From IMG/VR virus record IMGVR_UViG_3300014838_000014, positions 46,372 through 110,371 of that record: a stretch of DNA of 64,000 nucleotides; one strand, 5' to 3'. The notes under the pieces are model-generated. The model had not been told where the DNA came from and ran no database searches. It worked only from the letters and a program-made list of their open reading frames with translations. This stretch comes from a virus. The position numbers and the translations under genes were made by a program. This document shows, piece after piece, positions 2,470-63,557 of this stretch (positions are counted from its first letter, which is position 1; each line of letters begins with the position of its first letter).

Positions 2470-4719
2470 ATGAACAGTAGATTACCTCAAAAATTCGTTG
2501 GAATACACTCTCACACGGGATTCAGTCCATTTGATGGGCTCGGGTACCCTGACGAACATTTTACATGGTGTATGGAAAATGGATTAGATGCACATGCAAT
2601 AACAGACCACGGAAATTGTAACGCCTATGCTCACGCACAGCTGTGGATCGAGAAGTGGAATGCAGAGCACAAGGATAAACCTTTCAAGTACATTCCTGGC
2701 GTTGAGAGCTACTTTCACCCAGATTTGACGGCGTGGGAACAAGATAAATCGATCGCCGATCAGGCTCGTATCGATAAGAAGGTTGCAAAGAAGGTTGCTT
2801 CCTCACAGGAGGAGTACCAAACGAAGCTCATCGTCAACACAGATCAGAACGACGAGACAGAAAGCATCGAGATGACGAACGCTCTCGTCGTTGAGGACGA
2901 GGATGAGAGCAAGTCGACGAAGCACTTCAATCCCGTCAACCGTCGTCATCACCTTGTCCTGTTACCGAAGAACACCGCAGGTCTGTTGAAGATCTTTGGT
3001 CTCGTGTCGTGGTCGTACCTCCATGGGTTCTACAGGTTTCCAAGGATAGATGCCAAGCTACTTCGTGAGGCTGCAAAGGATCGCAACATCATCGCATCGT
3101 CTGCGTGCATTGCGGGACAACCTGCGTTCAATGTGTTTCAAGAAATACAGAAGCTATCGTTCGACGAGCTTGATCAGAAGCTTCTCGACGATCCTTCGCT
3201 TCTCGAGCGGTGCGTTACGTCTATTGGCAACACGTATGACCTGATGACAGACGTTCTTGGAGACGGTAACTACTACCTTGAGCTTCAGTTCAACAAGCTC
3301 GCCGCTCAGAACCTCGTGAACAGAGCGATCCTCGAGTTCGCAAAGCGTAACGGCGTCGAACAACAGCTCGTGGTGACGTGCGATTCACACTATCCTCGGC
3401 CTGAACTGTGGAAGGAACGTGAGCTCTACAAGAAGCTCGGATGGATGAACTACAAGGAGATCGATTCTGCTTCGCTACCGAACTCCGTCGATGAACTCAA
3501 GTGTCAATTGTACCCGAAGAACGCGAAGCAGCTTTGGGATGAATACCTTCTATCCAAGGAGGGAACCAGTTTCTACGATGACGACGTGATCTGCGATGCC
3601 ATCGAACGTACACACGACATCGCTCACCACGTGATCGGTGAGGTGCCGCCTGATCGTTCGCCGAAGTTCGCCGATAAGTTGCTTGTTCCAGAGGACATCA
3701 CGGCGTTCAATCACCTCGTGAAGCTGTGCATGGATGGAATGGTCAAACGCGGTCTACGTGACGATCAATCGTACGTTGACAGGTTGAAGGAGGAACTCGG
3801 CGTCATCAAGACGATGAAGAACGCCGTGTACTTCATATCGTACCAAAAAATAATGGAACTCGCTAGGAGCGTTTGTTTATGCGGTCCTGGTAGAGGTTCA
3901 GGAGGTGGATCTCTCGTTGCTTACGTCCTGTACATCACAGACCTCGATCCATTAAGGTGGGATTTGCCGTTCTCGCGGTTCCTGAGCGTGTACAGGAAGG
4001 GTGCACCTGACATAGACACCGACCTATCAAATCGCGACAAGGTTCTCGATCAATTAAGGGCATTCTTCGGGTTTGAGAACGTGGTTCCCATCTCGAACTA
4101 CAACACGTTTAAGTTAAAGACCCTTGTCAAGGACATCGGAAAGTTCTACGGCGTGCCTTTCGAGGAGACGAATGCGGCAACGAGGACGGTTGAGGAGGAG
4201 GTGCGCAAGGCGACGATGAAGGACTCGGATGATAAAAATCTTTTTGTCTTGCAGTTTGATGATGCGATGAAATATTCTCCATCGTTTAAATCTTTTATTG
4301 AAAGGTATCCAAACGTTGCAGAATCAATTAAGATATTGTTCAAACAGAACAGATCGCTTGGTCGCCACGCCGGGGGTGTATTGATTGCTGACGACTTGCC
4401 GAACAAAATGCCGCTTGTGGCAAGTCACGGCGAACCACAATCTCCATTTGTTGAAGGCGTAAACTTCAAACATTTGGAATACATTGGCAACTTTATTAAA
4501 TACGATTTGTTGGGCCTTGAAACGCTTCGTTTGATTGAAAGAACGATTGAATTAATAATCGAAAAAAATGGAGGAATTATTGAATTAGAAATTGATGGTG
4601 TCAAACATAGGTTGCTGGCTTCAGCGTACGTTAAGTTGGTTGATGGTTCATTTGTGAAAGCTGGTCTCTTAAAGGTTGATGATGATGTTATCATTCCAAT
4701 GGAGACGAGAAATGACTAA
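2470..4719 (+). CDS. dnaE: DNA polymerase III alpha, N-terminal fragment (PHP + palm) with intein-like C-terminal stub
   Basis: HSHTGFSPFDG, AITDHG, GPGRGSGGGSLVAY, PDIDTD, GRHAGGV, KYDLLGL; tail LEIDG..VKLVDGSFVKAGLLKVDDDV. Confidence 0.95.
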   Translation: MNSRLPQKFVGIHSHTGFSPFDGLGYPDEHFTWCMENGLDAHAITDHGNCNAYAHAQLWIEKWNAEHKDKPFKYIPGVESYFHPDLTAWEQDKSIADQARIDKKVAKKVASSQEEYQTKLIVNTDQNDETESIEMTNALVVEDEDESKSTKHFNPVNRRHHLVLLPKNTAGLLKIFGLVSWSYLHGFYRFPRIDAKLLREAAKDRNIIASSACIAGQPAFNVFQEIQKLSFDELDQKLLDDPSLLERCVTSIGNTYDLMTDVLGDGNYYLELQFNKLAAQNLVNRAILEFAKRNGVEQQLVVTCDSHYPRPELWKERELYKKLGWMNYKEIDSASLPNSVDELKCQLYPKNAKQLWDEYLLSKEGTSFYDDDVICDAIERTHDIAHHVIGEVPPDRSPKFADKLLVPEDITAFNHLVKLCMDGMVKRGLRDDQSYVDRLKEELGVIKTMKNAVYFISYQKIMELARSVCLCGPGRGSGGGSLVAYVLYITDLDPLRWDLPFSRFLSVYRKGAPDIDTDLSNRDKVLDQLRAFFGFENVVPISNYNTFKLKTLVKDIGKFYGVPFEETNAATRTVEEEVRKATMKDSDDKNLFVLQFDDAMKYSPSFKSFIERYPNVAESIKILFKQNRSLGRHAGGVLIADDLPNKMPLVASHGEPQSPFVEGVNFKHLEYIGNFIKYDLLGLETLRLIERTIELIIEKNGGIIELEIDGVKHRLLASAYVKLVDGSFVKAGLLKVDDDVIIPMETRND

Positions 4720-5863
4720 GTTTTACGTTTACGTTGATTCAACAACTGAAGAAACACCAAGACCTTTTTACGTTGGAAAGGGCACCAAAGACAGGATTGA
4801 TAATGAACAGCGAAACAAACGTCATGTATTTGTTTCAAATAAACACGGCTTTTCAAGAAGCGTTGTTTTCACGACTGAAAATGAAATTGAGGCGCTTTCA
4901 CACGAAGTGAAGTTGATTGCAGAACTTCACACCTACGTCAAGGATCCATTATCATCGTCGATTTCAGCAAATTTTACGTATGGTGGCGAAGGCGTTATTG
5001 GTATAAATGAACGTTGGGTTGAACAGTACAAAGACGGCGTTTTAGTCAAAAAATTTGCTAACTTTCATGAAGTTGCCGAACACTTTGGATTTACTAAGTC
5101 TGGCGTTGTTAGCAATGCATTCTCTGGTAGGTGCGTTTTTCCAGTCGTGATGCGAGAATTTACGTGGAACGTTGAACCATCGAGAAAACGTAAGTTGTCA
5201 TCGACACATGGAAATTCAATGATTATTCTCGAATTAAATCCGCAAACAAATGAAGTAATAAAAGAATATGCGTCAATCACAGAAGTTGTAAAATCAAAGA
5301 AAATAATGTACTCATACTTGATGAACGCAATTCGTTCGACCAATCCAAAAGCAATGGAGAAGTTGATCGCTAAAACGGGTAGCAAGTGGGCATTCAAGGA
5401 TGAAAAACACAACGTAGGAAAAATTCATAATTCGAACGTTCAATCACCATCAGGTCCTAAACCCGTGGTCGTTGTTTATTCAACTGGTATAAAACGTATA
5501 TATCCTTCAACTGTCAGGGCAGCACAAGCGTTGGGCATTAATCCAAATGAGTTGCTAGCGATTCTTCACGGTGATAACATTCAACGATCTGATTTTACGT
5601 GTTCATTTCTGCACGAAAGCGATCATCGTAAGGACGTTGTTAGGTCGAAGGAATGGATCAATGCGCTTGCTGGCATAAATGGAATTCAAATCGTGAAATT
5701 GGATAAGTCTGGAAACGTCATAGAAAAATTCAACTCAATTTCAGAGGCTGAACGTCGCGAAGGGTTTATGCATCATGAAATTTATAAACAATTGAGAATT
5801 GATAGCGTTTTGCATGCCAATGGGTTCACCTACAAACGTGTTGAGGAGCAATCGAATGTCTAA
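4712..5863 (+). mobile_element. Homing endonuclease (GIY-YIG-like N-terminus, NUMOD1-like repeats) inserted in dnaE
   Basis: FYVYVD...RPFYVGKG; repeated V.Q..(D/K)G..V..F.S..EA/V modules; AT-richer than flanks; 8-nt ATGnCTAA overlaps at both ends. Confidence 0.85.
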
Positions 5864-7481
5864 AATAACCTCAATCAATTCCGTCGCCACGTCGTTTGAC
5901 GACATCAAATCGTGGTACGAAACGCACCTTGCACCAAACGTCATTGACTTTGATGATCAGAAACCCTACGAAGTCTACTCTGAGGGACGGTTTTGCGGTA
6001 TATTCCAGTGCACAGGCCAAGGTGCCCAACGATTGTTTAAAAAAGCAAAACCCAAGAGCATCGTTGACATTGCAGCGTTGACGTCGATATATCGACCGGG
6101 TCCTCTTGCGGCGCACGTCGACAAGCTTTGGCTTGAACACGAACAATCGCCGTACGATTGGGGTCATCCATTGATAAATGAAACGTTGAAAAATACTCGA
6201 GGATTATTGGTGTTTCAAGAATCTGTGATGCACCTCGTCAACAAGGTTTCAGGGTTTCCGATGGCTGAGACCGATGAGGTTCGACGTGCCATCATGAAGC
6301 GTAGCATTTCTGGTGGTGAAGCTGCCAAAAAGAAAATGCAGGAACTTGAGGACAAGATTGTTGCCGGCGCAGTCAAGAACGGCGTTCCTGAGCCAACGGC
6401 ACGTAAGATGTACGAAACGATATGCTTTATGTCAGGTTATGGTTTCAATTGTGCGCACGCCGTTGCCTATAGCATCGATTCGTTTTGGTGTGCGTGGCTT
6501 TTAACGTATTATCCTGATGAGTGGGTCTGTTCATATCTCGAGTCCATGTCTACGACGCCCGATAAACGAGCAAAGGCATTCGGTGAGGTGAAGTCGTTGG
6601 GTTATCAGATCGTATCGATCGATGTCAATTACGCAAAGAAGGGTTGGACAGTTCTTCCCGGCAAGAAGTTGATGCCATCAATGTCATCGTGCAAGGGCGT
6701 CGGTGAATCGGCCGTAGATGAGATCATCTCCATGCGTCCGATTGAATCGATCGAGCGGTTGCTGTGGAACGATGACGGATCATGGCGTCCAAGCAAATTC
6801 AATTCCAGAGCGCTCGGTACGTTGATCAAGGTCGGTGCGTTCGATAGCCTCGGTTGCGTGGGTCCTGATAGAGTGTTCAAGAACTACAAACACATGCATG
6901 AAACGCTTCTTGGTTCGTATGAGGAAACCATCACACGCAGGCGAAAGGGCATCGAAGAGACGGTCGTCGTCTCTCGTGACCATTCTACTCTGCTCAAGCG
7001 ATCGACAAAGAAGGATCCACATGAGGGTCGACGTAACTTCTTTGAGCTTGCCCGTGGTCTCGCTGAAACGTGTACGGAGGAATGGACGAACCGCGAAAAG
7101 GCAGAGCTATATGCAGAGGCGTTTGGAACGGTTGACGTCATGATGATGTTCGATCAGACGTTGTTCGATAGGCTTGCTGAGAAGAACGTTCGATCTATCG
7201 AGGAGCTTGAGGTCGGTGAGAAGGACATCGTCTGGTTTGTCACCGTTGTTTGTGCGGCGAAGAAAGGCAAGGGCGTACCTTCAGCAGGAACCATGAAGAA
7301 GACCAAGAACGGTAAGTCGTACGCTCAACCGTTCGTCACCGGTCCGTCAGGAAAACCGCTACGCCTCAACGTATGGAGCGCGAAGGAGCTATTGCCGACG
7401 TATAAGCTGTGTTTTGCTGAGGTTGACAGGAATGACTACGGTTTCTCAACGACACAGTGGCGAATCAAGGAGATCGCATAA
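5856..7481 (+). CDS. dnaE: DNA polymerase III alpha, C-terminal fragment
   Basis: GIFQ, ALTSIYRPGPL, TRGLLVFQE, GYGFNCAHAVAYS, KGVGE HhH, LIKVGAFD; SD GAGGAG before ATG 5856. Confidence 0.93.
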   Translation: MSKITSINSVATSFDDIKSWYETHLAPNVIDFDDQKPYEVYSEGRFCGIFQCTGQGAQRLFKKAKPKSIVDIAALTSIYRPGPLAAHVDKLWLEHEQSPYDWGHPLINETLKNTRGLLVFQESVMHLVNKVSGFPMAETDEVRRAIMKRSISGGEAAKKKMQELEDKIVAGAVKNGVPEPTARKMYETICFMSGYGFNCAHAVAYSIDSFWCAWLLTYYPDEWVCSYLESMSTTPDKRAKAFGEVKSLGYQIVSIDVNYAKKGWTVLPGKKLMPSMSSCKGVGESAVDEIISMRPIESIERLLWNDDGSWRPSKFNSRALGTLIKVGAFDSLGCVGPDRVFKNYKHMHETLLGSYEETITRRRKGIEETVVVSRDHSTLLKRSTKKDPHEGRRNFFELARGLAETCTEEWTNREKAELYAEAFGTVDVMMMFDQTLFDRLAEKNVRSIEELEVGEKDIVWFVTVVCAAKKGKGVPSAGTMKKTKNGKSYAQPFVTGPSGKPLRLNVWSAKELLPTYKLCFAEVDRNDYGFSTTQWRIKEIA

Positions 7482-15608: not shown

Positions 15609-16176
15609 ATCACCCACGCTTACGGTTTATACGGGACCAATGTTCTCTGCAAAGACGTCTAGGTTGTTGCTCGATCTCGAAAGGTTCAAGCACCAACACA
15701 GGAACGTCATGGCGTTCAAACCGGTGATCGACGATCGTTACAGCGACGTGGACATCGTTTCACATATGGGTTGGCGTTACCCGGCGATCGGCATAACGGA
15801 GGGTGCTGACGTCCTGAAGCTGCTTGCAGAACGAAATCATCCATCTGACGTTGTTGCCGTTGACGAAGCATTCATGGTCGTTGGCATCTCCGAGGTGCTC
15901 ATCTGGTTGTATCGCACGGGCATCGACGTTGTCGTCTCGACGCTTGACTTATCCTCGACTGGGAAACCATTCAAGGAAGTTGAGAAGCTCCTACCGTGGG
16001 CCACGAGGGTCGAGAAGTGCGTTGCTGTGTGTGCAGAATGTGGTCGCGACGCGGCATACACGCATAAAAAACTGGTTTCCGGGAACGAGATTGAGATCGG
16101 TGGCGCTGAGTTGTACGAACCCAGGTGTTTGTTTCACCATGCGTTGATCTACAAGAGACCGAAGCTTGGCGAGTGA
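15601..16176 (+). CDS. tdk: Thymidine kinase
   Basis: GPMFSAKTS, FKP.IDDRY, VAVDEAF, AVC..CG..A, IGG.ELYEPRC. Confidence 0.92.
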   Translation: MSKSPTLTVYTGPMFSAKTSRLLLDLERFKHQHRNVMAFKPVIDDRYSDVDIVSHMGWRYPAIGITEGADVLKLLAERNHPSDVVAVDEAFMVVGISEVLIWLYRTGIDVVVSTLDLSSTGKPFKEVEKLLPWATRVEKCVAVCAECGRDAAYTHKKLVSGNEIEIGGAELYEPRCLFHHALIYKRPKLGE

Positions 16177-16180
16177 TTCG

Positions 16181-16516
16181 ATGAAACCTGGCGACCTCAT
16201 CGAATGGGTGTTCAAACGTAATTCTCAACCTGTCGATGAGGATGCCGAACTCTGGTCAACGACGATGAAGCGTTGGGCTCCAATCGGCGCTCATCCCATG
16301 ATGCTCATTTCGATGACAGACGAATTCTACATGTGGTTGACCCCGAAGGGGTTGTTCCACGCGCACCCGGATGACACGCCGGTTCCGATCCCGTTAATCA
16401 CATCGACTCGGGTTGTTCCGCGCGCGTGGATGACACAGACAACTACGTGCGAACCTGGTGGCGCGAAGACAGTTATTCCACGCGACTTATCGGAGAACAT
16501 CGATGAAACCAGGTGA
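16181..16516 (+). CDS. MKPGDLIEW-family protein, copy 1 (reads through two spacers)
   Basis: Family core; 2-nt deletion in repeat 2 removes the usual stop. Confidence 0.75.
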   Translation: MKPGDLIEWVFKRNSQPVDEDAELWSTTMKRWAPIGAHPMMLISMTDEFYMWLTPKGLFHAHPDDTPVPIPLITSTRVVPRAWMTQTTTCEPGGAKTVIPRDLSENIDETR

Positions 16517-16769
16517 CCTCATCGAATGGGTGTACAAATGTAATTCTAAACCTGTTCACGAGAGTGAACAAATCTGGTCAACGCCGATGCAATACTGGAT
16601 TCCAGTCGGCATTCATCCTACGATCCTCACTTCGATCACCGACGAGTTTTATGTGTGGCTGAACCCGAATGGTTTGTTCCACGCGCGCATGGACGACACG
16701 TATGCAAGGGTGGGATGGAAGACGGGCAAGGAACGGGTCGTTCCACGCGTTGTCGGAGAACATCGATGA
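16503..16769 (+). CDS. MKPGDLIEW-family protein, copy 2
   Basis: SD GGAG inside terminal repeat of previous unit. Confidence 0.8.
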   Translation: MKPGDLIEWVYKCNSKPVHESEQIWSTPMQYWIPVGIHPTILTSITDEFYVWLNPNGLFHARMDDTYARVGWKTGKERVVPRVVGEHR

Positions 16770-17026
16770 AACCAGGTGATCTAATTGAGTGGGCGTACAA
16801 TCGTAATTTTCTACCCGTTCGTAAGAATGAGGAACTCTGGTCAACGCCGATGAAACGCTGGATTCCAATCGGCGTTCATCCCATGATGCTCATTTCAATC
16901 ACTGACGAGTTTTGTTATTGGTTGACGCCCGATGGGTTGTTTCACGCACGCAGGGATGACACCTCTGCAATCGCCGATCCCATGACGATGCGCGCCGGTT
17001 GTTCTATATGCGTGTGGATGACATGA
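16766..17026 (+). CDS. MKPGDLIEW-family protein, copy 3
   Basis: Family core; 34-nt spacer shifts the tail frame. Confidence 0.8.
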   Translation: MKPGDLIEWAYNRNFLPVRKNEELWSTPMKRWIPIGVHPMMLISITDEFCYWLTPDGLFHARRDDTSAIADPMTMRAGCSICVWMT

Positions 17027-17042
17027 GTGTCGGAGAACATCG

Positions 17043-17300
17043 ATGAAACCAGGTGACCTCATCGAATGGGTGTACAAACGTAATTCTAAACCTGTTCACG
17101 AGAGTGAACAAATCTGGTCAATGTCGATGAAGAATTGGATTCCAATCAGTGTTCGTCCCGCAGTCCTCATCTCGATCACCGACGAGTTCTACGTGTGGCT
17201 GAACCCAAATGGGTTGTTCCACGCGTGTAGGGATGACACAGGAGTCCACCACCGTGGGCTGTACAGCCGGACTCCGGTTGTTCCGCGCACGCAGGGATGA
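17043..17300 (+). CDS. MKPGDLIEW-family protein, copy 4
   Basis: Family core; stop inside repeat 2. Confidence 0.8.
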   Translation: MKPGDLIEWVYKRNSKPVHESEQIWSMSMKNWIPISVRPAVLISITDEFYVWLNPNGLFHACRDDTGVHHRGLYSRTPVVPRTQG

Positions 17301-17414
17301 CACGATGTTCGTGTGGCCTGTAAACGAGCGAGGAACGGTTGTTCCCAGTGTTGTCTGACCGATCAATTTTCACCACGAACCTGTAGTTTGAATGAATGAA
17401 GAGTAGATTAACAT

Positions 17415-17894
17415 ATGGTTTTTATTCAAGATTCTGGAGAAGAAACAATGGTTGATTGTACAAACATAGAGCGTCCTTCGTGGCCTGAAGTGTGGATGGC
17501 GCTTGCTGAGAAGATTTCTGAACGTTCATACGATCCACGTTTACGCGTCGGTGCGATCATCGTCAGCGTTGACAACACGTCGGTGTTGAGCGTTGGGTAC
17601 AACGGAAACGCGCGAGGGTTACCAAACGTGCCTGAATCTTCTGAACCAGGAAAAAGTGGGTTTTTGCACTCTGAGCTGAATGCGTGCATAAAAGCCGACT
17701 ATCATTTCTTGGGTGAGAAGGTCATGTACTGCACGCATTCAACGTGTAGGGATTGTGCTCGAATACTCATCAACTTTGGAATTTCGAGGTTTGTGTACAA
17801 AACGAAGTACCGCGATGCGTCAGGCCTCGACCTGTTGACTCAAGGTGGTATTGAAGTTATGAGCCTTGATGATGCAGTACTTAAAGCACGATGA
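17415..17894 (+). CDS. dCMP deaminase (alternative start 17448)
   Basis: RPSW, RS.D...VGAIIV, GYNG, HSELNA, HSTCRDC. Confidence 0.88.
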   Translation: MVFIQDSGEETMVDCTNIERPSWPEVWMALAEKISERSYDPRLRVGAIIVSVDNTSVLSVGYNGNARGLPNVPESSEPGKSGFLHSELNACIKADYHFLGEKVMYCTHSTCRDCARILINFGISRFVYKTKYRDASGLDLLTQGGIEVMSLDDAVLKAR

Positions 17895-57090: not shown

Positions 57091-57158
57091 ACGCAATCTT
57101 TTATTTGCAAAGTGAACAAACCAAGCTCCACCCGAACCATGAATTCGTACTGTGAGCG

Positions 57159-57443
57159 TCATCCGCATGCAAGTGTAACAACCACGTGCCATCCACGTGC
57201 GCGCGGAACAACCATCCAGAGGTCCATCCGCTCCGATAGCGTCCCGGTATTATCTACACACGCGCGGAACAACCCCTCAGGCGTCAGCCACACGTAGAAC
57301 TCATCGGTGATCGAGATGAGGACGGCGGGATGAACACCGATAGGAATCCAACGATTCATCGGCGTTGACCAGAGTTTCTCATTCACATCAACGGGTTGAG
57401 AATTAGATATATACACCCACTCGATGAGGTCACCTGGTTTCAT
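57159..57443 (-). CDS. MKPGDLIEW-family protein, copy 5
   Basis: Family core; repeat-2 stop mutated to TGG. Confidence 0.8.
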   Translation of the reverse strand: MKPGDLIEWVYISNSQPVDVNEKLWSTPMNRWIPIGVHPAVLISITDEFYVWLTPEGLFRACVDNTGTLSERMDLWMVVPRARGWHVVVTLACG

Positions 57444-57703
57444 CTATGTTCTCCAATAATGCGTGGAACAACCCAGTATCGGGTGCCGACGGTCAACCTC
57501 GAAGAAGCGTCATCAACGCGCGCGAGGAGCAGGCCCTCAAGCGTCAGCCAAAAATAAAACTCGTCAGTGATTGAAATGAGCATCATGGGATGAACACCAA
57601 TGGGAACCCAACGTTGCATCGGCGTCGACCAAAGTTTGGCATCTTTATGAACATGTTGAGAATCATATTCATGTACCCACTCAATTAGATCGCCAGGTTT
57701 CAT
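57440..57703 (-). CDS. MKPGDLIEW-family protein, copy 6
   Basis: Family core; ends VVPRIIGEHR. Confidence 0.8.
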   Translation of the reverse strand: MKPGDLIEWVHEYDSQHVHKDAKLWSTPMQRWVPIGVHPMMLISITDEFYFWLTLEGLLLARVDDASSRLTVGTRYWVVPRIIGEHR

Positions 57704-57771
57704 CGATGTTCTCCGATAAGTCGCGTGGAATAACCATCGGAGGTGGAACGACGGAGGTAGCCGTCATCGTG

Positions 57772-58026
57772 TCATCCACGCGCGCGTGGAACAACCTCGA
57801 TGACCAAGGCGCTCACGGCGACTGCGCTGGTGTCATCCACGCGCGCGTGGAACAACCCCTCAAGCGTCAACCACATGTAGAATTCGTTGGTGATCGAAAC
57901 GAGGATGGCAGGTCGAACGCCGATGGGAATCCAACGTTGCATCGGTGTCGACCAGAGTTCGGCATCCTCATCGACGGGTTGAGAATCAGATTTATACACC
58001 CATTCAATTAGATCACCTGGTTTCAT
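57772..58026 (-). CDS. MKPGDLIEW-family protein, copy 7
   Basis: Consensus repeats; ends VVPRARG*. Confidence 0.85.
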   Translation of the reverse strand: MKPGDLIEWVYKSDSQPVDEDAELWSTPMQRWIPIGVRPAILVSITNEFYMWLTLEGLFHARVDDTSAVAVSALVIEVVPRARG

Positions 58027-58286
58027 CTATGTTCTCCGACGACGCGTGGAACAACCCGCGGCATGCGGGCTCTTGCGGGGGACGAGAAAGTGTCATCCAC
58101 GAGCGCGTGGAACAACCCATTTGGGTTCAGCCACACGTAGAACTCGTCGTTGATCGAGATGAGGACTGCGGGACGAACACCAATTTGAATCCAGCGTTTC
58201 ATTGACGTTGACCAGAGTTGCTCATTTTCATCAACTGGTTGAGAATTACGTTTGTACACCCATTCAATCAAATTACCTGGTTTCAT
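58023..58286 (-). CDS. MKPGDLIEW-family protein, copy 8
   Basis: Family core; ends VVPRVVGEHR. Confidence 0.8.
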   Translation of the reverse strand: MKPGNLIEWVYKRNSQPVDENEQLWSTSMKRWIQIGVRPAVLISINDEFYVWLNPNGLFHALVDDTFSSPARARMPRVVPRVVGEHR

Positions 58287-58351
58287 TGAAGCACCTCATG
58301 ACGCGTGGAACAACCGACGGTGGGGGCCATCGACGAGTGGACCTCGTCATG

Positions 58352-58606
58352 TCATCCACGCACGCGTGGAACAATCTTAGGACGAGATGTACGTCTTGGA
58401 GACCGACGCGTGTCATCCACTCGCGCGTGGAACAACCCCTCAAGCGTCAACCACGTGTAGAACTCATCGGTGATCGAGATGAGGACGCCGGGATGAACAC
58501 CGATTGGAATATAACGTTGCATTGACGTTGACCAAAGCCTCTCATTCTCAATAACGGGTTGAGAATTAATGGCATACACCCACTCGATCAAATCACCTGG
58601 TTTCAT
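58352..58606 (-). CDS. MKPGDLIEW-family protein, copy 9 (first of operon, likely leaderless)
   Basis: Family core; ends IVPRVRG*. Confidence 0.8.
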   Translation of the reverse strand: MKPGDLIEWVYAINSQPVIENERLWSTSMQRYIPIGVHPGVLISITDEFYTWLTLEGLFHARVDDTRRSPRRTSRPKIVPRVRG

Positions 58607-58612
58607 GGTTCA

Positions 58613-58641
58613 ATAATAACAAGAAAGATGAACGGTTACAC
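58613..58641 (-). promoter_or_regulatory. Sigma70-like promoter for MKPGDLIEW cluster 2
   Basis: GTGTAA-N17-TATTAT ends 6 nt before ATG 58606. Confidence 0.65.
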
Positions 58642-61145
58642 TTCAATGTAGCACCACGAAGTTATAATTCGATCGAAACCAGAACAATCCATCGTGAAAT
58701 AATGCATTAAAATATACATAATTATCATAAAAGTCAACATTATCACATATTATCTCAACGATGAAACATATTTCACTTTCGACCCAGTCACGGATCGTTC
58801 CGTTGTTCATACGTTCGAGTTCAATAGAAACTTTTTCCACGTTAAAAGGACCAATCCACTCATCAATCTGTGAGTTATATTCACCGTATGTAGGAAACAC
58901 GATCAATTGTCCGGGTGAATATTTATTCATTTGATTTGCTGATCAGAAATGACATTGAAACCATCGTACGTCTGAAACCAGAAGACTCCATCTGCAAACA
59001 AAGCACGAATGACGAAGTAATCATAACGTTCAAATTCATTCGATTCGATGATAACACACGCCTCATTACAACACCATTCACGGCAATATGCTCTAAGACT
59101 AGAATGGCTTAAATAAGTTCTTCTATGAAGAAACAGCGAACTGCAGAAATGAAGCGATCTTTTTGGAAACACGACCAAGTGTCCTGGTTTGGGTTTGATT
59201 ATCATCTGTGTCTGTTCATCGTTGAACGAGTGTACAATCGAAACCAGAAAACGCCGTCCGTGAACAAAGCTCTGACGTAAAAACACTCAGTGAAAGCATC
59301 CACGTGCAATTCGATAATAATACATATCTCGTTAAAACGCCACATGCGCTCGTACTTTTTAAACCTACGCGATCCATCACCTATATCATCACAGCGCCCG
59401 TACAGGCGTTTAAATATTTTTCCACCAACAGAATGTTCATTATTAAATGAGCTCGGAAAGATGATTAATTGACCGACGAATATTGCGTCATCACTGTTTG
59501 TCTTCATTGTTCACGATATGAAAAAGTTGAACGACGTGCGAAACCAAAAGATTCCATCTACGAACAAAGCTCTGACGTCAAAATCATTGTACGCTGCGTA
59601 TCTGTTTAAAACAGATTCAATCACAACGCACGCCTCATTCGGTTTCCAATTACGAACATATTCATGTAAGAACGATGAATTATTATTTGAATTCAAACGT
59701 CTGTCTTGACACAGTCCAGAGGCAAAGTCGGAAGTCGCTCCAGTCATTAATTTTGGAAATACGATCAGTTGTCCAACATAAATTTCCTCGTTCATGTTTC
59801 TAATTTGCCGTAAACAACTCTACTTCAATGAAACGAAACGTTGCACTGCTCATCGTCAACAAACGCAGCTGAATTTACTACCCGTACGAAACCAGAACGT
59901 ACCATCTACGAACAGCGCTCGAACGTCGAATCTATTTTGATAGAACTTATCTTCCTTCGATAAATCAACCTTATATGCTTCAATAACGATGCACGCTTCG
60001 CTCGATGTCCAATTCCGTACGAACGCGTTTGCAAACATCTTCCACGAAGGGTCGGCGAATTCGCTTCTTTTACGGTTGAATAAATACGTTGCAAAGTTAA
60101 GGTCATCGAATCTATTGCGCGACGGAAACGTGACCAGTCGTCCGCTCATAGAGCGTTCTTGTAACTCTTTCATCAAGACCTTCGTTGCTTCGTTGTTCAT
60201 CCTAGAGACCCTTTTAATGAGTTAAAATTGAACCAGAAAACGCCATCGGTGAACAAAGCTCTAACGTTGATCCACATTGATAAACAAGTAGAAGGACAGA
60301 TTTCACGAACTTCAATGACAACGCACGATTCACCCCATTTCCACATACGTGCAAACGTTGCCAATAACCCGATGCCATCGAAAGAATGGTATAGATTTCC
60401 ATGGAAGTTGAAGTTGTTTACACCGATCAATGACGTCGGAAAGACGATGAGCTCGCCAACGAATGGACGTTTGCTGATACCATCGTTTGACACGATCATC
60501 TAACCGTTGATGAGCTAGAACGTTGGAATTGATTTCTGAACGTCTGGAACCAGAACGCTCCGTCGTGAAAGAGACACCTGACGAGCCGATTGCTAGCCTC
60601 AGTGAATTTCATGGACAATGGATTGATGGCATCATGCGCTTCAAGAACGATGCACGGTTCATCGAATTGCCAATCTCGAACGAAACCAAGCAATGGAAAC
60701 AACCCGGAAATACTTCGATCAAAAAATAAAAATAGACTAGAAAGATAGATCTCATTGCGTGCAGAAGGAAACACGAACAGCTCGCCCGGTAACAGAGACT
60801 GTTTATTATCTGATTTCATTGGAATGACAAATCATACTTCAATGGCTGACGACATTACACCGCGGGTTTATCATTATCAATTATATGATAGAACCAGAAC
60901 ACTCCGTCGACGAACAGGGCTTTGGTGATGATGGAGTTAGACAACACTGCATTCGTTTTCTTCGTTTCAATGATCAAGCATACCTCGCCGACATTCCATT
61001 TCCTGATGCTTGAATCCAAATATGGATATTCTTTAGAAGAAGAACTGCTGATCTTCGACAAGGCCAAGTACCGTTGTCGACCGTATAGAACATCGTTGAA
61101 TCCGGACACGATTTCACAAGATTGAAACACGTACAGGTCTCCCGG

Positions 61146-61592
61146 TTCAATGCAAAGAAGCTTCTTCGATCGGTTCATGTGCTTCTTAGGAAGACGTACC
61201 AGTCTCCGATGAAGTATGTCCAGCGTTTGACTCGTCCGCGAGGTGCATTGTACTCGACGAGTGACGATTCTTAAATTTAATCATTTGTGTTCTACGATTT
61301 CATTGACAATCATAATAAAACACAAACACCGCGGAATCACGTGCGAAAAAAGCCTTGACAATGAAAACACCAACTTCATCATTCAACGCTGAATTTATGA
61401 TAAAACACACTTCATCATATTCCCACCTTCTTATTTTAACATCGTTTTTATCGTTGTACAAGAAACTGCTGATTCCGCCGCCATAAACACCATGCGACGG
61501 AAACACGAAGACATCGCCCGGTGCAGGTTGCAACGATTCAGTGCAAAGAAGCCTCTTCGGTCGTTTCATGTGCTTCTTAGGAAGACGTACCA
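61146..61592. repeat. About 56-bp direct repeat (61146-61201 and 61537-61592) covering the starts of two family-C paralogs
   Basis: TTCA(A/G)TGCAAAGAAGC(T/C)TCTTCG(A/G)TCG(G/T)TTCATGTGCTTCTTAGGAAGACGTACCA. Confidence 0.85.
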
Positions 61593-61605
61593 GGTCTTGG
61601 TTCAA

Positions 61606-61912
61606 TGATTTTCACGCGTGCGCTCGAACCATTGAATCTGACCCTGATCGTCAAGAACGGCCGTTATGAATCCCCAGCCTTCTTTTGGACCCACAGCTAT
61701 GGATCCAACCAATCCATTGAGCAGTCCAAGAAATCCCACGTTCTTACCGATGAAACCTGAATGGTGGGGTGATTGTAAGTGGCTTCAGAAACAGGAACTT
61801 TGACCTGAAACAAGGCACTTATGTCTTTACAAATACCTGGATCAGAAATCAACTCATTCAAACGAGATACGAGTAGATCTGTCGAGTCTTCGTTTGTTAT
61901 TTGGTCATTCAT
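61606..61912 (-). pseudogene. Frameshifted phage gene (HPTIQV / VGFLGLLNGLVG halves)
   Basis: HPTIQV frame derails; the -1 frame gives GKNVGFLGLLNGLVG..GWGFITAV..FERT. Confidence 0.45.
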
Positions 61913-62791
61913 GATTCCGTTGTCTTTCTTGGTTTCTCGATCGTGTAACTGATCTGATTCAGATCTTGGGTCTCTTTGAAACGCTTCCCATTGGTCCCCT
62001 AGTTTTGCCACAGATGAATGAAATAGTAAAACATAAACACGGCGTTGTCCGTGAACAGAGCATCAACTTTTAAACGATCAAGGACATCATCCTTAGAAAC
62101 GTTCAGAACGAAGCACATCTCTCCTTCGATCCACCGTCGGCCGTAGCATGGCACGCCGTGATTGTTCAACCACAGCCACGATCCATAATAATACCCGTCA
62201 GTTGAAAACACGAACAGGTCGCCCGGCTCGATGATCTCACGATGTGCGGAGACAAAATCGTTTTTCGATGAAGTGGCAGCGTCCGCGCCGATCACGAGCT
62301 CGTCCTCCACTTTCTCTCCGCACAAACGTCAACGTGATGAGTCGGACAGTGGTAGAACCAGAACGTTCCGTCGACGAACAGGCCCCTGACGATGTTGTAG
62401 AAATTATTCAACGTTCTATTTTCATACGTCTCCAGAACGAGACACGATTCGTTTGGTTTCCATTTCCTGACAACATCATCCAAAAAATGTAACGTGTGTG
62501 GTGGATGGCTGAAGACATTCCTTTGAGCGTACAGCTCGTCGCTGAATAACATCGGTGCACGCTTTACATATGTGATCAGTTGACCCAACTTGGGCAACGA
62601 TGTAGACGATGATTTCATCGGCGTCGATGGCACTCAGTCGTCCTTCTTGCGTACGGTGGCTCCACAACGCGTGCAGACGTCCTTTACGTACACTCTGTAG
62701 TAGAACATCCTACGCGTGTCCTCGATGATCGAAAGCGGCACTTCGTCGTACCGAGCTCTGAAGCTGTGTCCGAAGCGGCTCGTGCACTTGT

Positions 62792-62986
62792 TTACCATGG
62801 TGATGAAACTCGAGTCTCTGTTTTGCGTGTTGATGGTGGAGACCGGTAGATTATGATCGAACGTTCGATCCTAGAATCGAAAGGTCGTCGCCACATCGTC
62901 AAACCTCCCAGGTCCGTCAGATAGACACACAAACTCAGCGCCACGATGACGCCGGTGAACCACGAGACCTTATCGATTGTTGTCAT
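62792..62986 (-). CDS. Small membrane protein
   Basis: One TM; SD GGAG. Confidence 0.5.
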   Translation of the reverse strand: MTTIDKVSWFTGVIVALSLCVYLTDLGGLTMWRRPFDSRIERSIIIYRSPPSTRKTETRVSSPW

Positions 62987-63557
62987 TTCTCTTCTCCGTC
63001 ATTCGTCATCATCGTGCGTGGCATAACCCTACTATCGAACTGGCTATGTTTGTGGCCTTCGTGGAAATCCACACGTGCGTGGAACAACCCATCCGGTGTC
63101 AGCCACATGTACAATTTGTCTGTGATCGAAATCAAAATTGCTGGGTGAACACCAATTGGAACCAAACGTTGCATCGGCGTAAACCAAAGTTTGACATCCT
63201 CATTAACGGGTTGAGAATTATTTCTGTACACCCATTTAATGAGGTCACCGGGTTTCATCGATGTTCTTCTTTCATTCATTTGCATCACCACTGCAATCCA
63301 TGAGCACATGCTGAGCCACCTTGTCATCGCCGGCAACCAACACAGGTCGCTGAAGGAACGACGTTTGGTGGGAGATCCAGCAACAACCGGATTCGGTGAT
63401 CATGATGTGGGTCCTGGTACGGCTGGAATGGGTCATGGTGGGCATCTGATCCCATGGTCGGATTTGCTTCGAAGAAGAAACATACGCCGACATCGATCGA
63501 TCTCTACGTTCCTTGAGACGCCGGTGAACCACGAGACCTTATCGATTGTTGTCATTT
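62948..63557. repeat. Exact 41-bp direct repeat (62948-62988 and 63517-63557) bracketing MKPGDL copy 10
   Basis: GACGCCGGTGAACCACGAGACCTTATCGATTGTTGTCATTT at both positions. Confidence 0.9.
62983..63258 (-). CDS. MKPGDLIEW-family protein, copy 10, with one degenerate repeat-spacer-repeat
   Basis: MKPGDLIKW..GLFHARVD..RVMPR; repeats 63062-63089 and 63001-63028, 61 nt apart. Confidence 0.75.
   Translation of the reverse strand: MKPGDLIKWVYRNNSQPVNEDVKLWFTPMQRLVPIGVHPAILISITDKLYMWLTPDGLFHARVDFHEGHKHSQFDSRVMPRTMMTNDGEEK

What the first reader, a model, noticed from the sequence alone, without database searches (positions are those of the whole stretch)
57156..58641. CRISPR-like repeat-spacer units fused into the coding tail of a multicopy small gene (cluster 2, cleanest example)
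Seen: five tandem ~85-aa MKPGDLIEW genes each run into a 28-nt hairpin repeat GGTTGTTCCACGCGCGCGTGGATGACAC (stem TCCACG/CGTGGA). It is followed by a unique spacer of exactly 33 nt (57214-57246, 57474-57506, 57736-57768, 57797-57829, 58057-58089, 58316-58348, 58377-58409) and another repeat. Repeat 1 is translated GLFHARVDDT. Because the 61-nt period shifts the frame by one, the spacer gives about 11 hypervariable residues and repeat 2 reads VVPRARG*, supplying the stop in the intact copies. The gene bodies show synonymous variation (ccaggtgacctcatcgaa / cctggcgatctaattgag), so they look truly coding. Established: 28+33 nt, a central hairpin and GTGT...AACC ends (reverse strand) are the geometry of type I-E CRISPR arrays. 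No cas gene is recognisable in the window. Inference: an undescribed system in which spacer acquisition (host or phage Cas1-Cas2) either rewrites a protein's C-terminus or creates one-gene-one-guide cassettes (mini-CRISPR or RNA anti-CRISPR decoys co-expressed with a small partner protein). Array orientation is ambiguous.
Basis: partly seen in the sequence, partly recalled or inferred. Interest (0 to 1): 0.97.

Follow-up and report, generated by a model that had tools for sequence, protein, structure and literature searches.

The report
CRISPR mini-arrays fused to phage genes
A large peat-soil phage carries many copies of a small gene whose tail is a tiny CRISPR array without cas genes, filled with pieces of bacterial housekeeping genes, and the newest piece is kept readable as a loop of the protein; I found no description of such an arrangement in the papers I could search.

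Summary
Five tandem copies of a small gene (10 copies in the window) each run into a 28-nt hairpin repeat. A unique spacer follows, 33 nt in all seven listed cases, then a full repeat or a 13-nt half repeat.

These are real CRISPR-type units. The geometry is type I-E. The gene-proximal repeat is the best kept, and spacers start with G in 62% of cases. Spacers are GC-rich and foreign. One spacer matches a pilB-like transcript 33/33 in a peat metatranscriptome, and another matches a second transcript 30/33. Two more encode the MreB/FtsA motif and a serine-hydrolase active-site motif.

No Cas Pfam family turned up in 60 window ORFs, and no Cas1 in the related phages. Every copy of the repeat in the three scanned public collections sits on a member of this gene family. 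No host array with this repeat was found.

Translation matters. None of 40 gene-proximal spacers has an in-frame stop (about 12 expected), and 35 of 40 have lengths that are multiples of 3. AlphaFold2 places both repeat-encoded strands in an SH3-like fold.

Function is unproven: guides for host Cascade, an integration sink, or loop diversification. I rate it a new variant of virus-borne mini-arrays. Other AI notes of this scan report the same cassette in this genome and similar translated arrays in other phages.

The parts
58438..58606 (-). Core (169 nt, 56 codons) of gene copy 1, the first of the cluster; the whole ORF is 58352..58606
   Evidence: family alignment A1; dN/dS 0.27
58303..58437 (-). 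Array of copy 1: repeat 58410-58437, spacer 58377-58409, repeat 58349-58376, spacer 58316-58348, half repeat 58303-58315
   Evidence: Spacer 58316-58348 matches an RNA contig 30/33 with unrelated flanks. It is 100% shared with phage locus L024, which lacks the gene-proximal repeat+spacer. Spacer 58377-58409 resembles dnaX only weakly.
58118..58286 (-). Core of gene copy 2 (ORF 58023..58286, stop overlaps the next ATG)
58044..58117 (-). Array of copy 2: repeat 58090-58117, spacer 58057-58089, half repeat 58044-58056 joined to the Shine-Dalgarno site of copy 3
   Evidence: Homology to L024 ends exactly at the repeat/spacer border.
57858..58026 (-). Core of gene copy 3 (ORF 57772..58026)
   Evidence: AlphaFold2 model of this protein
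57723..57857 (-). Array of copy 3, with two perfect repeats: repeat 57830-57857, spacer 57797-57829, repeat 57769-57796, spacer 57736-57768, half repeat 57723-57735
   Evidence: The opposite strand of spacer 57797-57829 encodes SMTKALTATAL, a serine-hydrolase SxxK site, with 26-28/33 nt matches in Acidobacteriota. The opposite strand of spacer 57736-57768 encodes IGGGTTEVAVI, the MreB/FtsA motif, 28/33 nt.
57535..57703 (-). Core of gene copy 4 (ORF 57440..57703)
57461..57534 (-). Array of copy 4: degenerate repeat 57507-57534, spacer 57474-57506, half repeat 57461-57473
   Evidence: The spacer matches a 370-nt peat metatranscriptome contig 33/33, and the flanks read as a PilB/GspE N-terminal domain (homologues).
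57275..57443 (-). Core of gene copy 5, the last of the cluster (ORF 57159..57443)
57156..57274 (-). Array of copy 5: repeat 57247-57274, spacer 57214-57246, repeat 57186-57213, then 2 nt and a degenerate repeat 57156-57183
16181..17340 (+). Cluster 1: four more gene+array cassettes, inserted between the thymidine kinase and dCMP deaminase genes
   Evidence: The two flanking genes are adjacent in the syntenic phage contig C9.
63001..63258 (-). Solo cassette: core 63090-63258, repeat 63062-63089, spacer 63029-63061, degenerate repeat 63001-63028
   Evidence: It lies inside a 528-nt insert bounded by a perfect 41-nt direct repeat.

Best explanation
These are genuine CRISPR-type repeat-spacer units with type I-E geometry, built into the 3' end of a conserved, multicopy phage gene of about 62 codons. 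The gene body takes the place of the leader, and its last 28 nt are the first repeat. New units of 28-nt repeat plus about 33-nt spacer enter at the gene-proximal repeat. This is the way a type I-E Cas1-Cas2 integrase works, and since the phage has no cas genes, the integrase is presumably the host's. The spacers are fragments of bacterial chromosomal genes, probably the host's, taken from either strand. The repeat is open in the frame that gives GLFHARVDDT and carries TGA in the next frame (VVPRARG-stop), and 61 is 1 mod 3. Each integration therefore swaps an 11-residue loop of a small SH3-like protein and pushes the old spacer beyond the stop. Selection removes integrations that break this reading frame. 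Shown here: the anatomy, the foreign origin of spacers, gain or loss of a unit on the gene-proximal side, the frame constraint and the absence of cas genes. Inferred, at about 35-40%: the gene-plus-array transcript is cut by the host's Cas6e into guides. About 20 cassettes per genome would then flood host Cascade, pulling it away from anti-phage guides and towards the host's own chromosome.
For: Geometry: 61 distinct spacers across the window and its relatives have lengths of 33 nt (39), 36 (7) and 34 (6). Repeats within an array are identical in the clean cases, up to 4 per array. Polarity: the full, best-kept repeat lies at the gene and a truncated one at the far end. The window has one extra repeat+spacer at the gene side compared with L024, while the distal spacer is identical. 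The first spacer base is G in 32 of 52 spacers (p = 4e-5) and in 19 of 26 in clean arrays, as with the PAM-derived G of I-E. In gene sense the repeat matches I-E repeats of Acidobacteriota at 19-20 of 29 positions. Foreign origin: spacer GC is 57-72% whatever the phage GC (37-61%); the window shows 61% against 47%, with 0 of 20,000 resamples reaching it. Spacers look like coding DNA compared with their own shuffles (z = 8.3). Protospacers: a 33/33 match in a pilB-like transcript and a 30/33 match in a second transcript, each covering exactly the spacer with unrelated flanks; MreB/FtsA and SxxK-hydrolase motifs in two others. No strand bias (30 against 31), which fits capture from DNA. Translation: 0 of 40 first spacers carry an in-frame stop (about 12 expected; 12 and 6 in the other frames), and 35 of 40 have lengths that are multiples of 3. 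AlphaFold2 (pLDDT 88.8) builds strands from both repeat translations. No Cas1 in five related records and no Cas Pfam family in 60 window ORFs. RNA-library contigs span gene-array junctions (weak, because DNA carry-over is possible).
Against: No host array with this repeat was found. In the genome collection, the metagenome collection and the virus records searched, every copy of the repeat sits on a family gene. The nearest I-E repeats are only about 69% identical, so recognition by a host Cas6e or Cas1-Cas2 is assumed, not shown. The 5' flanks of the two near-exact protospacers (GTA and CTC) are not the canonical AAG PAM. Most arrays end in a half repeat without a hairpin, and many repeats are decayed, which is poor for guide production. 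Spacers of 36, 39-40 and 42 nt are unusual for an I-E ruler. Ribosomes reading through repeat 1 and spacer 1 would compete with Cas6e. No processed RNA ends could be seen, because only contigs were available.
Confidence: 0.5

Rival explanations
1. Loop diversification is the selected function. The cassette uses CRISPR spacer integration as a generator of variety for an 11-residue surface loop of an SH3-like binder, and the many paralogues form a repertoire. RNA guides are irrelevant, and downstream spacers are discarded former loops.
For: 0 of 40 first spacers carry stops, and 35 of 40 have lengths that are multiples of 3. Later spacers are not significantly depleted of stops (3 of 21). The two reading frames of the repeat give two predicted beta strands and a stop. 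The architecture is kept in all 40 protein clusters, down to 44% identity. There are 10 copies in this window, each with a different loop.
Against: The frame constraint is also expected if the protein simply has to stay intact while integrations occur. One family copy ends right after repeat 1, with no loop or last strand (L034). No target for such binders is known, and the fold match is generic (Z 4.4 or less). Loops made from random fragments of host genes have no evident reason to be useful. dN/dS of the core is ordinary (0.27).
Confidence: 0.2
2. Integration sink or scar. The gene's 3' end mimics a leader-repeat junction, so the host's Cas1-Cas2 puts spacers into the many phage copies instead of the host array. 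The spacers come from host DNA that is broken down during infection. On this reading the units are by-products or decoys against adaptation, not guides.
For: Spacers come from bacterial genes on both strands and none from the phage itself. There are many copies per genome. Arrays stay short, 4 repeats at most, and decay freely. Only repeat 1 is consistently kept. Off-target Cas1-Cas2 integration that duplicates a 28-bp pseudo-repeat is known in E. coli (Nivala et al. 2018, from my own knowledge; the paper was not read here).
Against: Sporadic off-target scars would not be kept across phages whose proteins share only about 40% identity. The repeat is conserved at synonymous sites in clean arrays. 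The identified spacers fall in the most conserved motifs of their source genes, although this may be a detection bias.
Confidence: 0.18
3. RNA anti-CRISPR of the Racr or Cracr kind. The repeat hairpins, with or without the spacers, soak up Cas6e and Cas7 or steer Cascade onto cas or toxin promoters.
For: Cas-less repeat units in phages inhibit I-E, I-F, I-C and V-A systems (PMC10651486). Phage two- and three-spacer I-E arrays silence cas promoters (bioRxiv 10.1101/2024.10.29.618823). The copy number here is high.
Against: Racrs are solitary, non-coding and sit behind their own promoter, whereas these units are inside an ORF and carry full-length spacers. The identified spacers match coding regions of housekeeping genes, not cas promoters. 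Cracr spacers are conserved, whereas these are all different. No matching host repeat was found.
Confidence: 0.08
4. Not CRISPR-related. An old internal duplication of the coding tail, with the stretch between the copies drifting freely and being shuffled by recombination among paralogues.
For: Recombination at the repeats can explain both the abrupt homology breaks and the 61-nt indel. The length classes favour multiples of 3.
Against: Drift cannot give spacers of 57-72% GC in phages of 37-47% GC. It also cannot give a 33/33 match to a bacterial pilB-like transcript confined exactly to the spacer, nor spacers that encode MreB and SxxK motifs on the opposite strand. The G at spacer position 1 falls on a four-fold degenerate site, so coding does not explain it.
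Confidence: 0.04

Closest known systems
Virus-borne cas-less mini-CRISPR arrays (Sulfolobales viruses SPV1/SPV2, Medvedeva et al. 2019, PMC6858448; review PMC11656645)
   Same: One to three spacers, no cas genes on the virus, and presumed dependence on the host's Cas proteins.
   Different: Those arrays have repeats identical to the host's, lie between genes, and mostly target related viruses. Here the repeat was found only on phage genes. The array begins inside an ORF and its first spacer is translated. There are 10 cassettes in this window. The identified targets are bacterial housekeeping genes.
CRISPR arrays of huge phages with spacers against host genes (Al-Shayeb et al. 2020, PMC7162821)
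   Same: Compact phage arrays, often without adaptation or interference genes. Some spacers match host genes (sigma-70, a tRNA synthetase), and host take-over or repression has been proposed.
   Different: Those are free-standing arrays with a median of six repeats. No fusion to a coding gene, no translated spacer and no multicopy gene family is reported.
Type I-E CRISPR arrays (E. coli type; arrays of Acidobacteriota seen)
   Same: A 28-nt repeat plus a 33-nt unit (period 61), a central GC hairpin, a GGATGA..C tail, a G after the repeat, and growth at the leader side.
   Different: Only 19-20 of 29 repeat positions are shared. The stem is TCCACGCG rather than CCCCGCG. There is no non-coding leader and no adjacent cas operon. 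Arrays have at most 4 repeats.
RNA anti-CRISPRs: Racr solitary repeat units (PMC10651486) and Cracr arrays (bioRxiv 10.1101/2024.10.29.618823)
   Same: Phage-encoded mimicry of CRISPR repeats without cas genes, and multiplexed short arrays in the Cracr case.
   Different: Racrs have no spacer and are non-coding. Cracr spacers are short, conserved and match cas or toxin promoters. Here the spacers are full length, all different, and match coding regions.
Off-target ('neo-CRISPR') spacer integration by I-E Cas1-Cas2 (Nivala, Shipman and Church 2018; cited from my own knowledge and named in scan note e1-5948641; not read here)
   Same: A 33-bp insert flanked by a duplicated 28-bp pseudo-repeat at a site outside a CRISPR locus.
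   Different: Those events are sporadic laboratory events. Here the site is a conserved feature of a whole phage gene family, and the reading frame is adapted to tolerate the insert.

Membership tests
CRISPR array, type I-E-like | Direct, partly palindromic repeats of 28-29 nt | tested here: met
   8 copies at 3 mismatches or fewer against 0 expected. Stem pairs are kept in 44-49 of 51 distinct repeats at five of six positions, with some A-T to G-C compensation at pair 10-19.
CRISPR array, type I-E-like | Unique spacers of nearly constant length (32-33 nt, period 61) | tested here: met
   39 of 61 spacers are 33 nt. All are different except those shared by descent. A minority of 34, 36 and 39-42 nt is atypical.
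CRISPR array, type I-E-like | Spacers copied from foreign DNA (protospacers exist) | tested here: met
   33/33 and 30/33 matches confined to the spacers in RNA-library contigs. MreB/FtsA and SxxK motifs in two others. GC excess.
CRISPR array, type I-E-like | New spacers enter at the leader-proximal repeat; the distal repeat is degenerate | tested here: inconclusive
   An extra gene-proximal unit relative to L024 and a truncated distal repeat fit this. A deletion by recombination between repeats would give the same picture.
CRISPR array, type I-E-like | Adjacent or genome-encoded cas genes | tested here: not met
   No Cas Pfam family in 60 window ORFs. No Cas1 in G001-G005. The rest of the 128-kb contig could not be searched.
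CRISPR array, type I-E-like | A consistent PAM beside protospacers | tested here: inconclusive
   Only two near-exact protospacers, with 5' flanks GTA and CTC. The G bias at spacer position 1 hints at a PAM-derived base.
CRISPR array, type I-E-like | Processing into crRNA by Cas6e | not testable with these tools
   Only assembled contigs of RNA libraries were available, and these cannot show RNA ends.
Virus-borne mini-CRISPR arrays (Medvedeva/Faure type) | Repeats identical to those of the host's CRISPR array | tested here: inconclusive
   No free-standing array with this repeat was found in one genome for each of 185,579 bacterial and archaeal species or in 241 million metagenome records, searched with exact-match patterns. 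The host itself is unknown.
Virus-borne mini-CRISPR arrays (Medvedeva/Faure type) | Spacers target related viruses | tested here: not met
   No spacer matched the phage, its relatives or 50,697 phage records. The identified sources are bacterial genes.
Racr (solitary repeat unit RNA anti-CRISPR) | A single non-coding repeat behind its own promoter, without a spacer | tested here: not met
   The repeats lie inside or behind an ORF and carry spacers. One family copy has a lone repeat, but it is coding (L034).
Cracr (Cas-repressing RNA anti-CRISPR) | Spacer partly matches a cas or creT promoter of the host | not tested
   The host CRISPR locus is unknown. The four or five spacers with identified sources match coding regions.

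The most novel reading that the evidence does not exclude
CRISPR spacer integration has been taken over as a programmed generator of protein diversity. The repeat is a dual-frame coding element, giving one strand in frame 0 and another strand plus a stop in frame +1. Every 33-nt integration therefore installs a new 11-residue loop in a folded phage protein and retires the old one, which would give the phage an evolvable repertoire of about 20 binders.
Probability: 0.2. Interest if true: 0.95.

Novelty: new variant of a known kind. Interest (0 to 1): 0.8.

Why it matters
Cas-less arrays on viruses are known, and so are phage spacers against host genes. In all described cases, though, the array is a free-standing non-coding element whose repeat copies the host's. 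Three things differ here. The array is welded to a conserved gene that stands where the leader should be. The repeat doubles as coding sequence in two frames. And there is statistical evidence that the spacer next to the gene must remain translatable.

This makes three open questions testable. Can Cas1-Cas2 use a protein-coding sequence as leader and repeat? Can spacer capture remodel a protein? Do lytic phages turn host Cascade on the host chromosome, or do they soak up its adaptation machinery?

The spacers are also a record of host genes, which gives a new handle for linking uncultured peat phages to their hosts. The phage recurs in peat and permafrost metagenomes from 2018 to 2025, so spacer turnover can be followed in existing data.

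Tried and rejected
- **No whole genome** is held for the window.
- **Phage records:** megablast of 20 kb and tblastn of the protein against 50,697 phage records gave nothing. A blastn of the array region gave only two chance hits at E = 2.
- **Exact repeat core in IMG/VR:** none. The relatives there carry variants.
- **Self-targets:** no spacer matches the window, the 216-kb relative G002, contig C9 or the other loci beyond chance 12-16-mers.
- **C9's spacers** have no target in the MAG they were binned with. That MAG also lacks the pilB-like fragment. No hit in 124 genomes of its phylum.
- **Host hunt:** the pilB-like fragment reaches only 74-80% nucleotide identity in Acidobacteriota, so the phylum is a lead, not a finding.
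- **Cluster 1 spacers** gave no hit in 301 genomes. The dnaX assignment of spacer 58377-58409 is weak (22/33 ungapped).
- **Antisense idea rejected:** all four or five identified spacers are antisense to their source genes. A codon-usage strand test that is 81% accurate on true 33-mers then gave 30 antisense against 31 sense over 61 spacers.
- **PAM** is not resolvable from two flanks.
- **Kinship of the neighbouring small-gene family:** hhalign probability 5.7%, not significant.
- **Fold searches** gave only generic SH3/Tudor/Sm-like matches. The protein atlas gave unnamed viral clusters.
- **Pfam** gave nothing for the family.
- **Promoter and terminator scan** was at the chance level.
- **RNA fold of one array** had z = -1.9, and the two repeats pair with each other, so it is uninformative.
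- **DNA-run contigs** over the cluster are short and show many joints between paralogous copies. I could not tell alleles from other copies, so I did not use them as evidence of turnover.
Full report
**What is there**

The window is part of a large phage. It carries a DnaE polymerase split by a NUMOD/HNH endonuclease gene, DnaJ, GroEL, thymidine kinase, dCMP deaminase, thymidylate synthase, lysozyme and NUDIX genes. A syntenic 89-kb phage contig sits in a Bdellovibrionota MAG bin. No whole genome is held for the window.

On the minus strand at 57156-58606 lie five head-to-tail copies of a small gene. Each has a core of exactly 169 nt, followed by the 28-nt repeat GGTTGTTCCACGCGCGCGTGGATGACAC. 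A 33-nt spacer comes next, then either a second full repeat or a 13-nt half repeat. The half repeat is joined to the Shine-Dalgarno site and ATG of the next copy.

The repeat occurs 8 times at 3 mismatches or fewer against 0 expected by chance. Four more cassettes lie at 16181-17340 on the plus strand, and a solo one lies at 63001-63258. The cores are under purifying selection, with median dN/dS 0.27.

**The family**

The protein has 40 clusters in metagenomes. All keep the same plan: a core, then GLFHARVDDT, then about 11 variable residues, then VVPRxxG.

Related loci come from several sources:
- IMG/VR, including a 46-kb contig with the same repeat and a 216-kb phage with the variant GGTTGCTCCACGCGCGCGAGG[A/C]TGATAC;
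- 18 metagenome contigs;
- one MAG contig.

In every one of these the repeat array starts inside the 3' end of a family gene, on the same strand, with at most four repeats. No free-standing long array with this repeat turned up. The exact-pattern scans covered one genome for each of 185,579 bacterial and archaeal species and 241 million metagenome records.

**Why these are CRISPR-type units and not a coding duplication**

1. Geometry. Of 61 distinct spacers, 39 are 33 nt long, so the period is 61.
2. Orientation and polarity. The gene-proximal repeat is full and the best kept, and the distal one is truncated. The first spacer base is G in 32 of 52 spacers (p = 4e-5), although it falls on a four-fold degenerate codon position. 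This matches the PAM-derived G of type I-E. In gene sense the repeat aligns with I-E repeats of Acidobacteriota at 19-20 of 29 positions, including the GGATGA..C tail.
3. Composition. Spacer GC is 57-72% in phages of 37-61% GC. The window shows 61% against 47%, and 0 of 20,000 resamples reached the observed value. Spacers also look like bacterial coding DNA compared with their own shuffles (z = 8.3).
4. Protospacers. In contigs of a peat metatranscriptome, one 370-nt record holds a 33/33 match to spacer 57474-57506. Its flanks are unrelated to the window. Spacer and flanks together read as a PilB/GspE N-terminal domain. A second record matches spacer 58316-58348 at 30/33, again confined exactly to the spacer.
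5. Motifs. Searches of 301 genomes of one Acidobacteriota order found 26-28/33 matches for two further spacers. Their opposite strands encode IGGGTTEVAVI, the MreB/FtsA phosphate-binding motif, and SMTKALTATAL, a serine-hydrolase SxxK site.
6. Comparison with a related phage (L024). The window has one extra repeat+spacer exactly on the gene side, while the distal spacer is 100% identical. At the next cassette, homology that is near-perfect over the last ~100 nt of the core (about 90% over the whole core) and complete through repeat 1 stops dead at the repeat/spacer border. Recombination at the repeats could also produce these two patterns, so they show modular turnover but not, on their own, fresh acquisition.

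**No cas genes**

Pfam scans of 60 ORFs of the window, including all 30 ORFs of 200 aa or more, found no Cas family. Cas1 is absent from the five related records. The other half of the 128-kb contig could not be searched.

**Translation matters**

Repeat 1 is read as GLFHARVDDT. After a 33-nt spacer the frame shifts by one, so repeat 2 is read as VVPRARG followed by TGA.

Among 40 gene-proximal spacers from all sources, none has an in-frame stop. Shuffles predict about 12 (P < 0.0002), and the other two frames have 12 and 6. Thirty-five of the 40 have lengths that are multiples of three. Downstream spacers are not significantly depleted of stops (3 of 21 against 5.6 expected).

AlphaFold2 on the family alignment gives a confident all-beta model (pLDDT 88.8). 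Both the repeat-1 strand (residues 58-62) and the repeat-2 strand (residues 75-82) are part of the model, and the spacer forms the connecting loop. The fold is a generic SH3/Tudor-like barrel with no informative match. Each added unit therefore replaces an 11-residue loop and moves the former loop beyond the stop.

**What I tested and dropped**

All four firmly identified spacers, and one tentative one, are antisense to their source genes, which suggested an antisense-RNA role. I built a codon-usage strand test that is 81% accurate on real 33-mers. Over all 61 spacers it gave 30 antisense against 31 sense. There is no strand bias, as expected for capture from DNA.

The two near-exact protospacers do not share an AAG PAM. 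The pilB-like fragment finds its only nucleotide-level relatives (74-80% identity) in Acidobacteriota. In one order of that phylum, 14 of 301 genomes carry type I-E systems. This makes the phylum a lead for the host and nothing more.

**How it most likely works**

Shown here: the anatomy, the bacterial origin of spacers, gain or loss of a unit on the gene-proximal side, the frame constraint, and the lack of cas genes.

Inferred: a type I-E Cas1-Cas2, presumably the host's, integrates fragments of host DNA at the junction between the gene and its first repeat. The gene-plus-array transcript may then be cut by Cas6e into guides that occupy host Cascade and point it at the host chromosome. I put that reading at about 35-40%.

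Two alternatives fit the same data almost as well. The cassettes could be an integration sink whose spacers are by-products (about 18%). Or the loop swapping could itself be the selected function (about 20%). A Racr- or Cracr-like role fits poorly. A non-CRISPR coding duplication is nearly excluded.

**Comparison with what is known**

Virus-borne mini-arrays have host-identical repeats and target related viruses (PMC6858448; PMC11656645). Huge-phage arrays can target host genes but are free-standing (PMC7162821). I found no paper describing arrays fused to a coding gene with a translated spacer.

Other AI notes of this scan report the same cassette elsewhere in this genome, and translated or gene-embedded arrays in other phages. 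Those notes are leads, not independent support.

Noticed in passing
window 58643-62633, minus strand: Ten tandem paralogues of a second small-gene family (95-119 aa). They share PG.L.VFP near the start, R.W..E.C in the middle and ALF.DG.FWF near the end, and lie directly upstream of cluster 2. They carry no repeats. A profile comparison with the MKPGDLIEW family lines up the PGDLI and GLFH/ALFH motifs but is not significant (probability 5.7%).
   Followed up: partly
window 62948-62988 and 63517-63557: A perfect 41-nt direct repeat, which is the ribosome site and first 13 codons of the gene MTTIDKVSWFTGV..., brackets a 528-nt insert (62989-63516) that holds the solo cassette. The cassette seems to have landed at the start of that gene with a 41-nt target duplication, which hints that cassettes move.
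   Followed up: partly
window 16176-17415 compared with contig C9 (G001:C9 about 83418-84417): Thymidine kinase and dCMP deaminase are adjacent, and overlap slightly, in the syntenic phage contig. In the window, the four cassettes of cluster 1 sit between them.
   Followed up: yes
window 2470-7481: The DNA polymerase III alpha gene is split into two ORFs: PHP plus NTPase domains at 2470-4719, and finger plus HhH domains at 5799-7481. An ORF with NUMOD/I-HmuI-like endonuclease motifs (4676-5863) lies between them.
   Followed up: no
window 57304-57344, 58123-58153 and 58453-58503 (gene cores): The part of the gene core that encodes ..HP..LISITDEF.. hits dozens of Acidobacteriota genomes at 81-96% over 25-42 nt. 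I did not find out which bacterial gene is hit, or whether this is chance similarity of a GC-rich coding motif.
   Followed up: no
window 57474/57832 joint in run X3 (table 5c): A 2023 peat contig joins a half repeat to a repeat 1 with 35 other letters between them, which is the size of a spacer. This could be another copy of the family or an allele with a different spacer.
   Followed up: no
L034 / G002 about 211193-211220: One family copy in the 216-kb relative ends just after a single perfect repeat (..HAREDDTV, then stop), with no spacer or second repeat. It may be the unexpanded state of the cassette.
   Followed up: partly
window as a whole: The cassette region is held at 0.5-0.83 of sampled words in 8 peat or permafrost metagenome runs from 7 studies, 2018 to 2023. 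Further runs up to 2025 hold it at lower shares. Three contigs of one metatranscriptome library match it exactly.
   Followed up: partly
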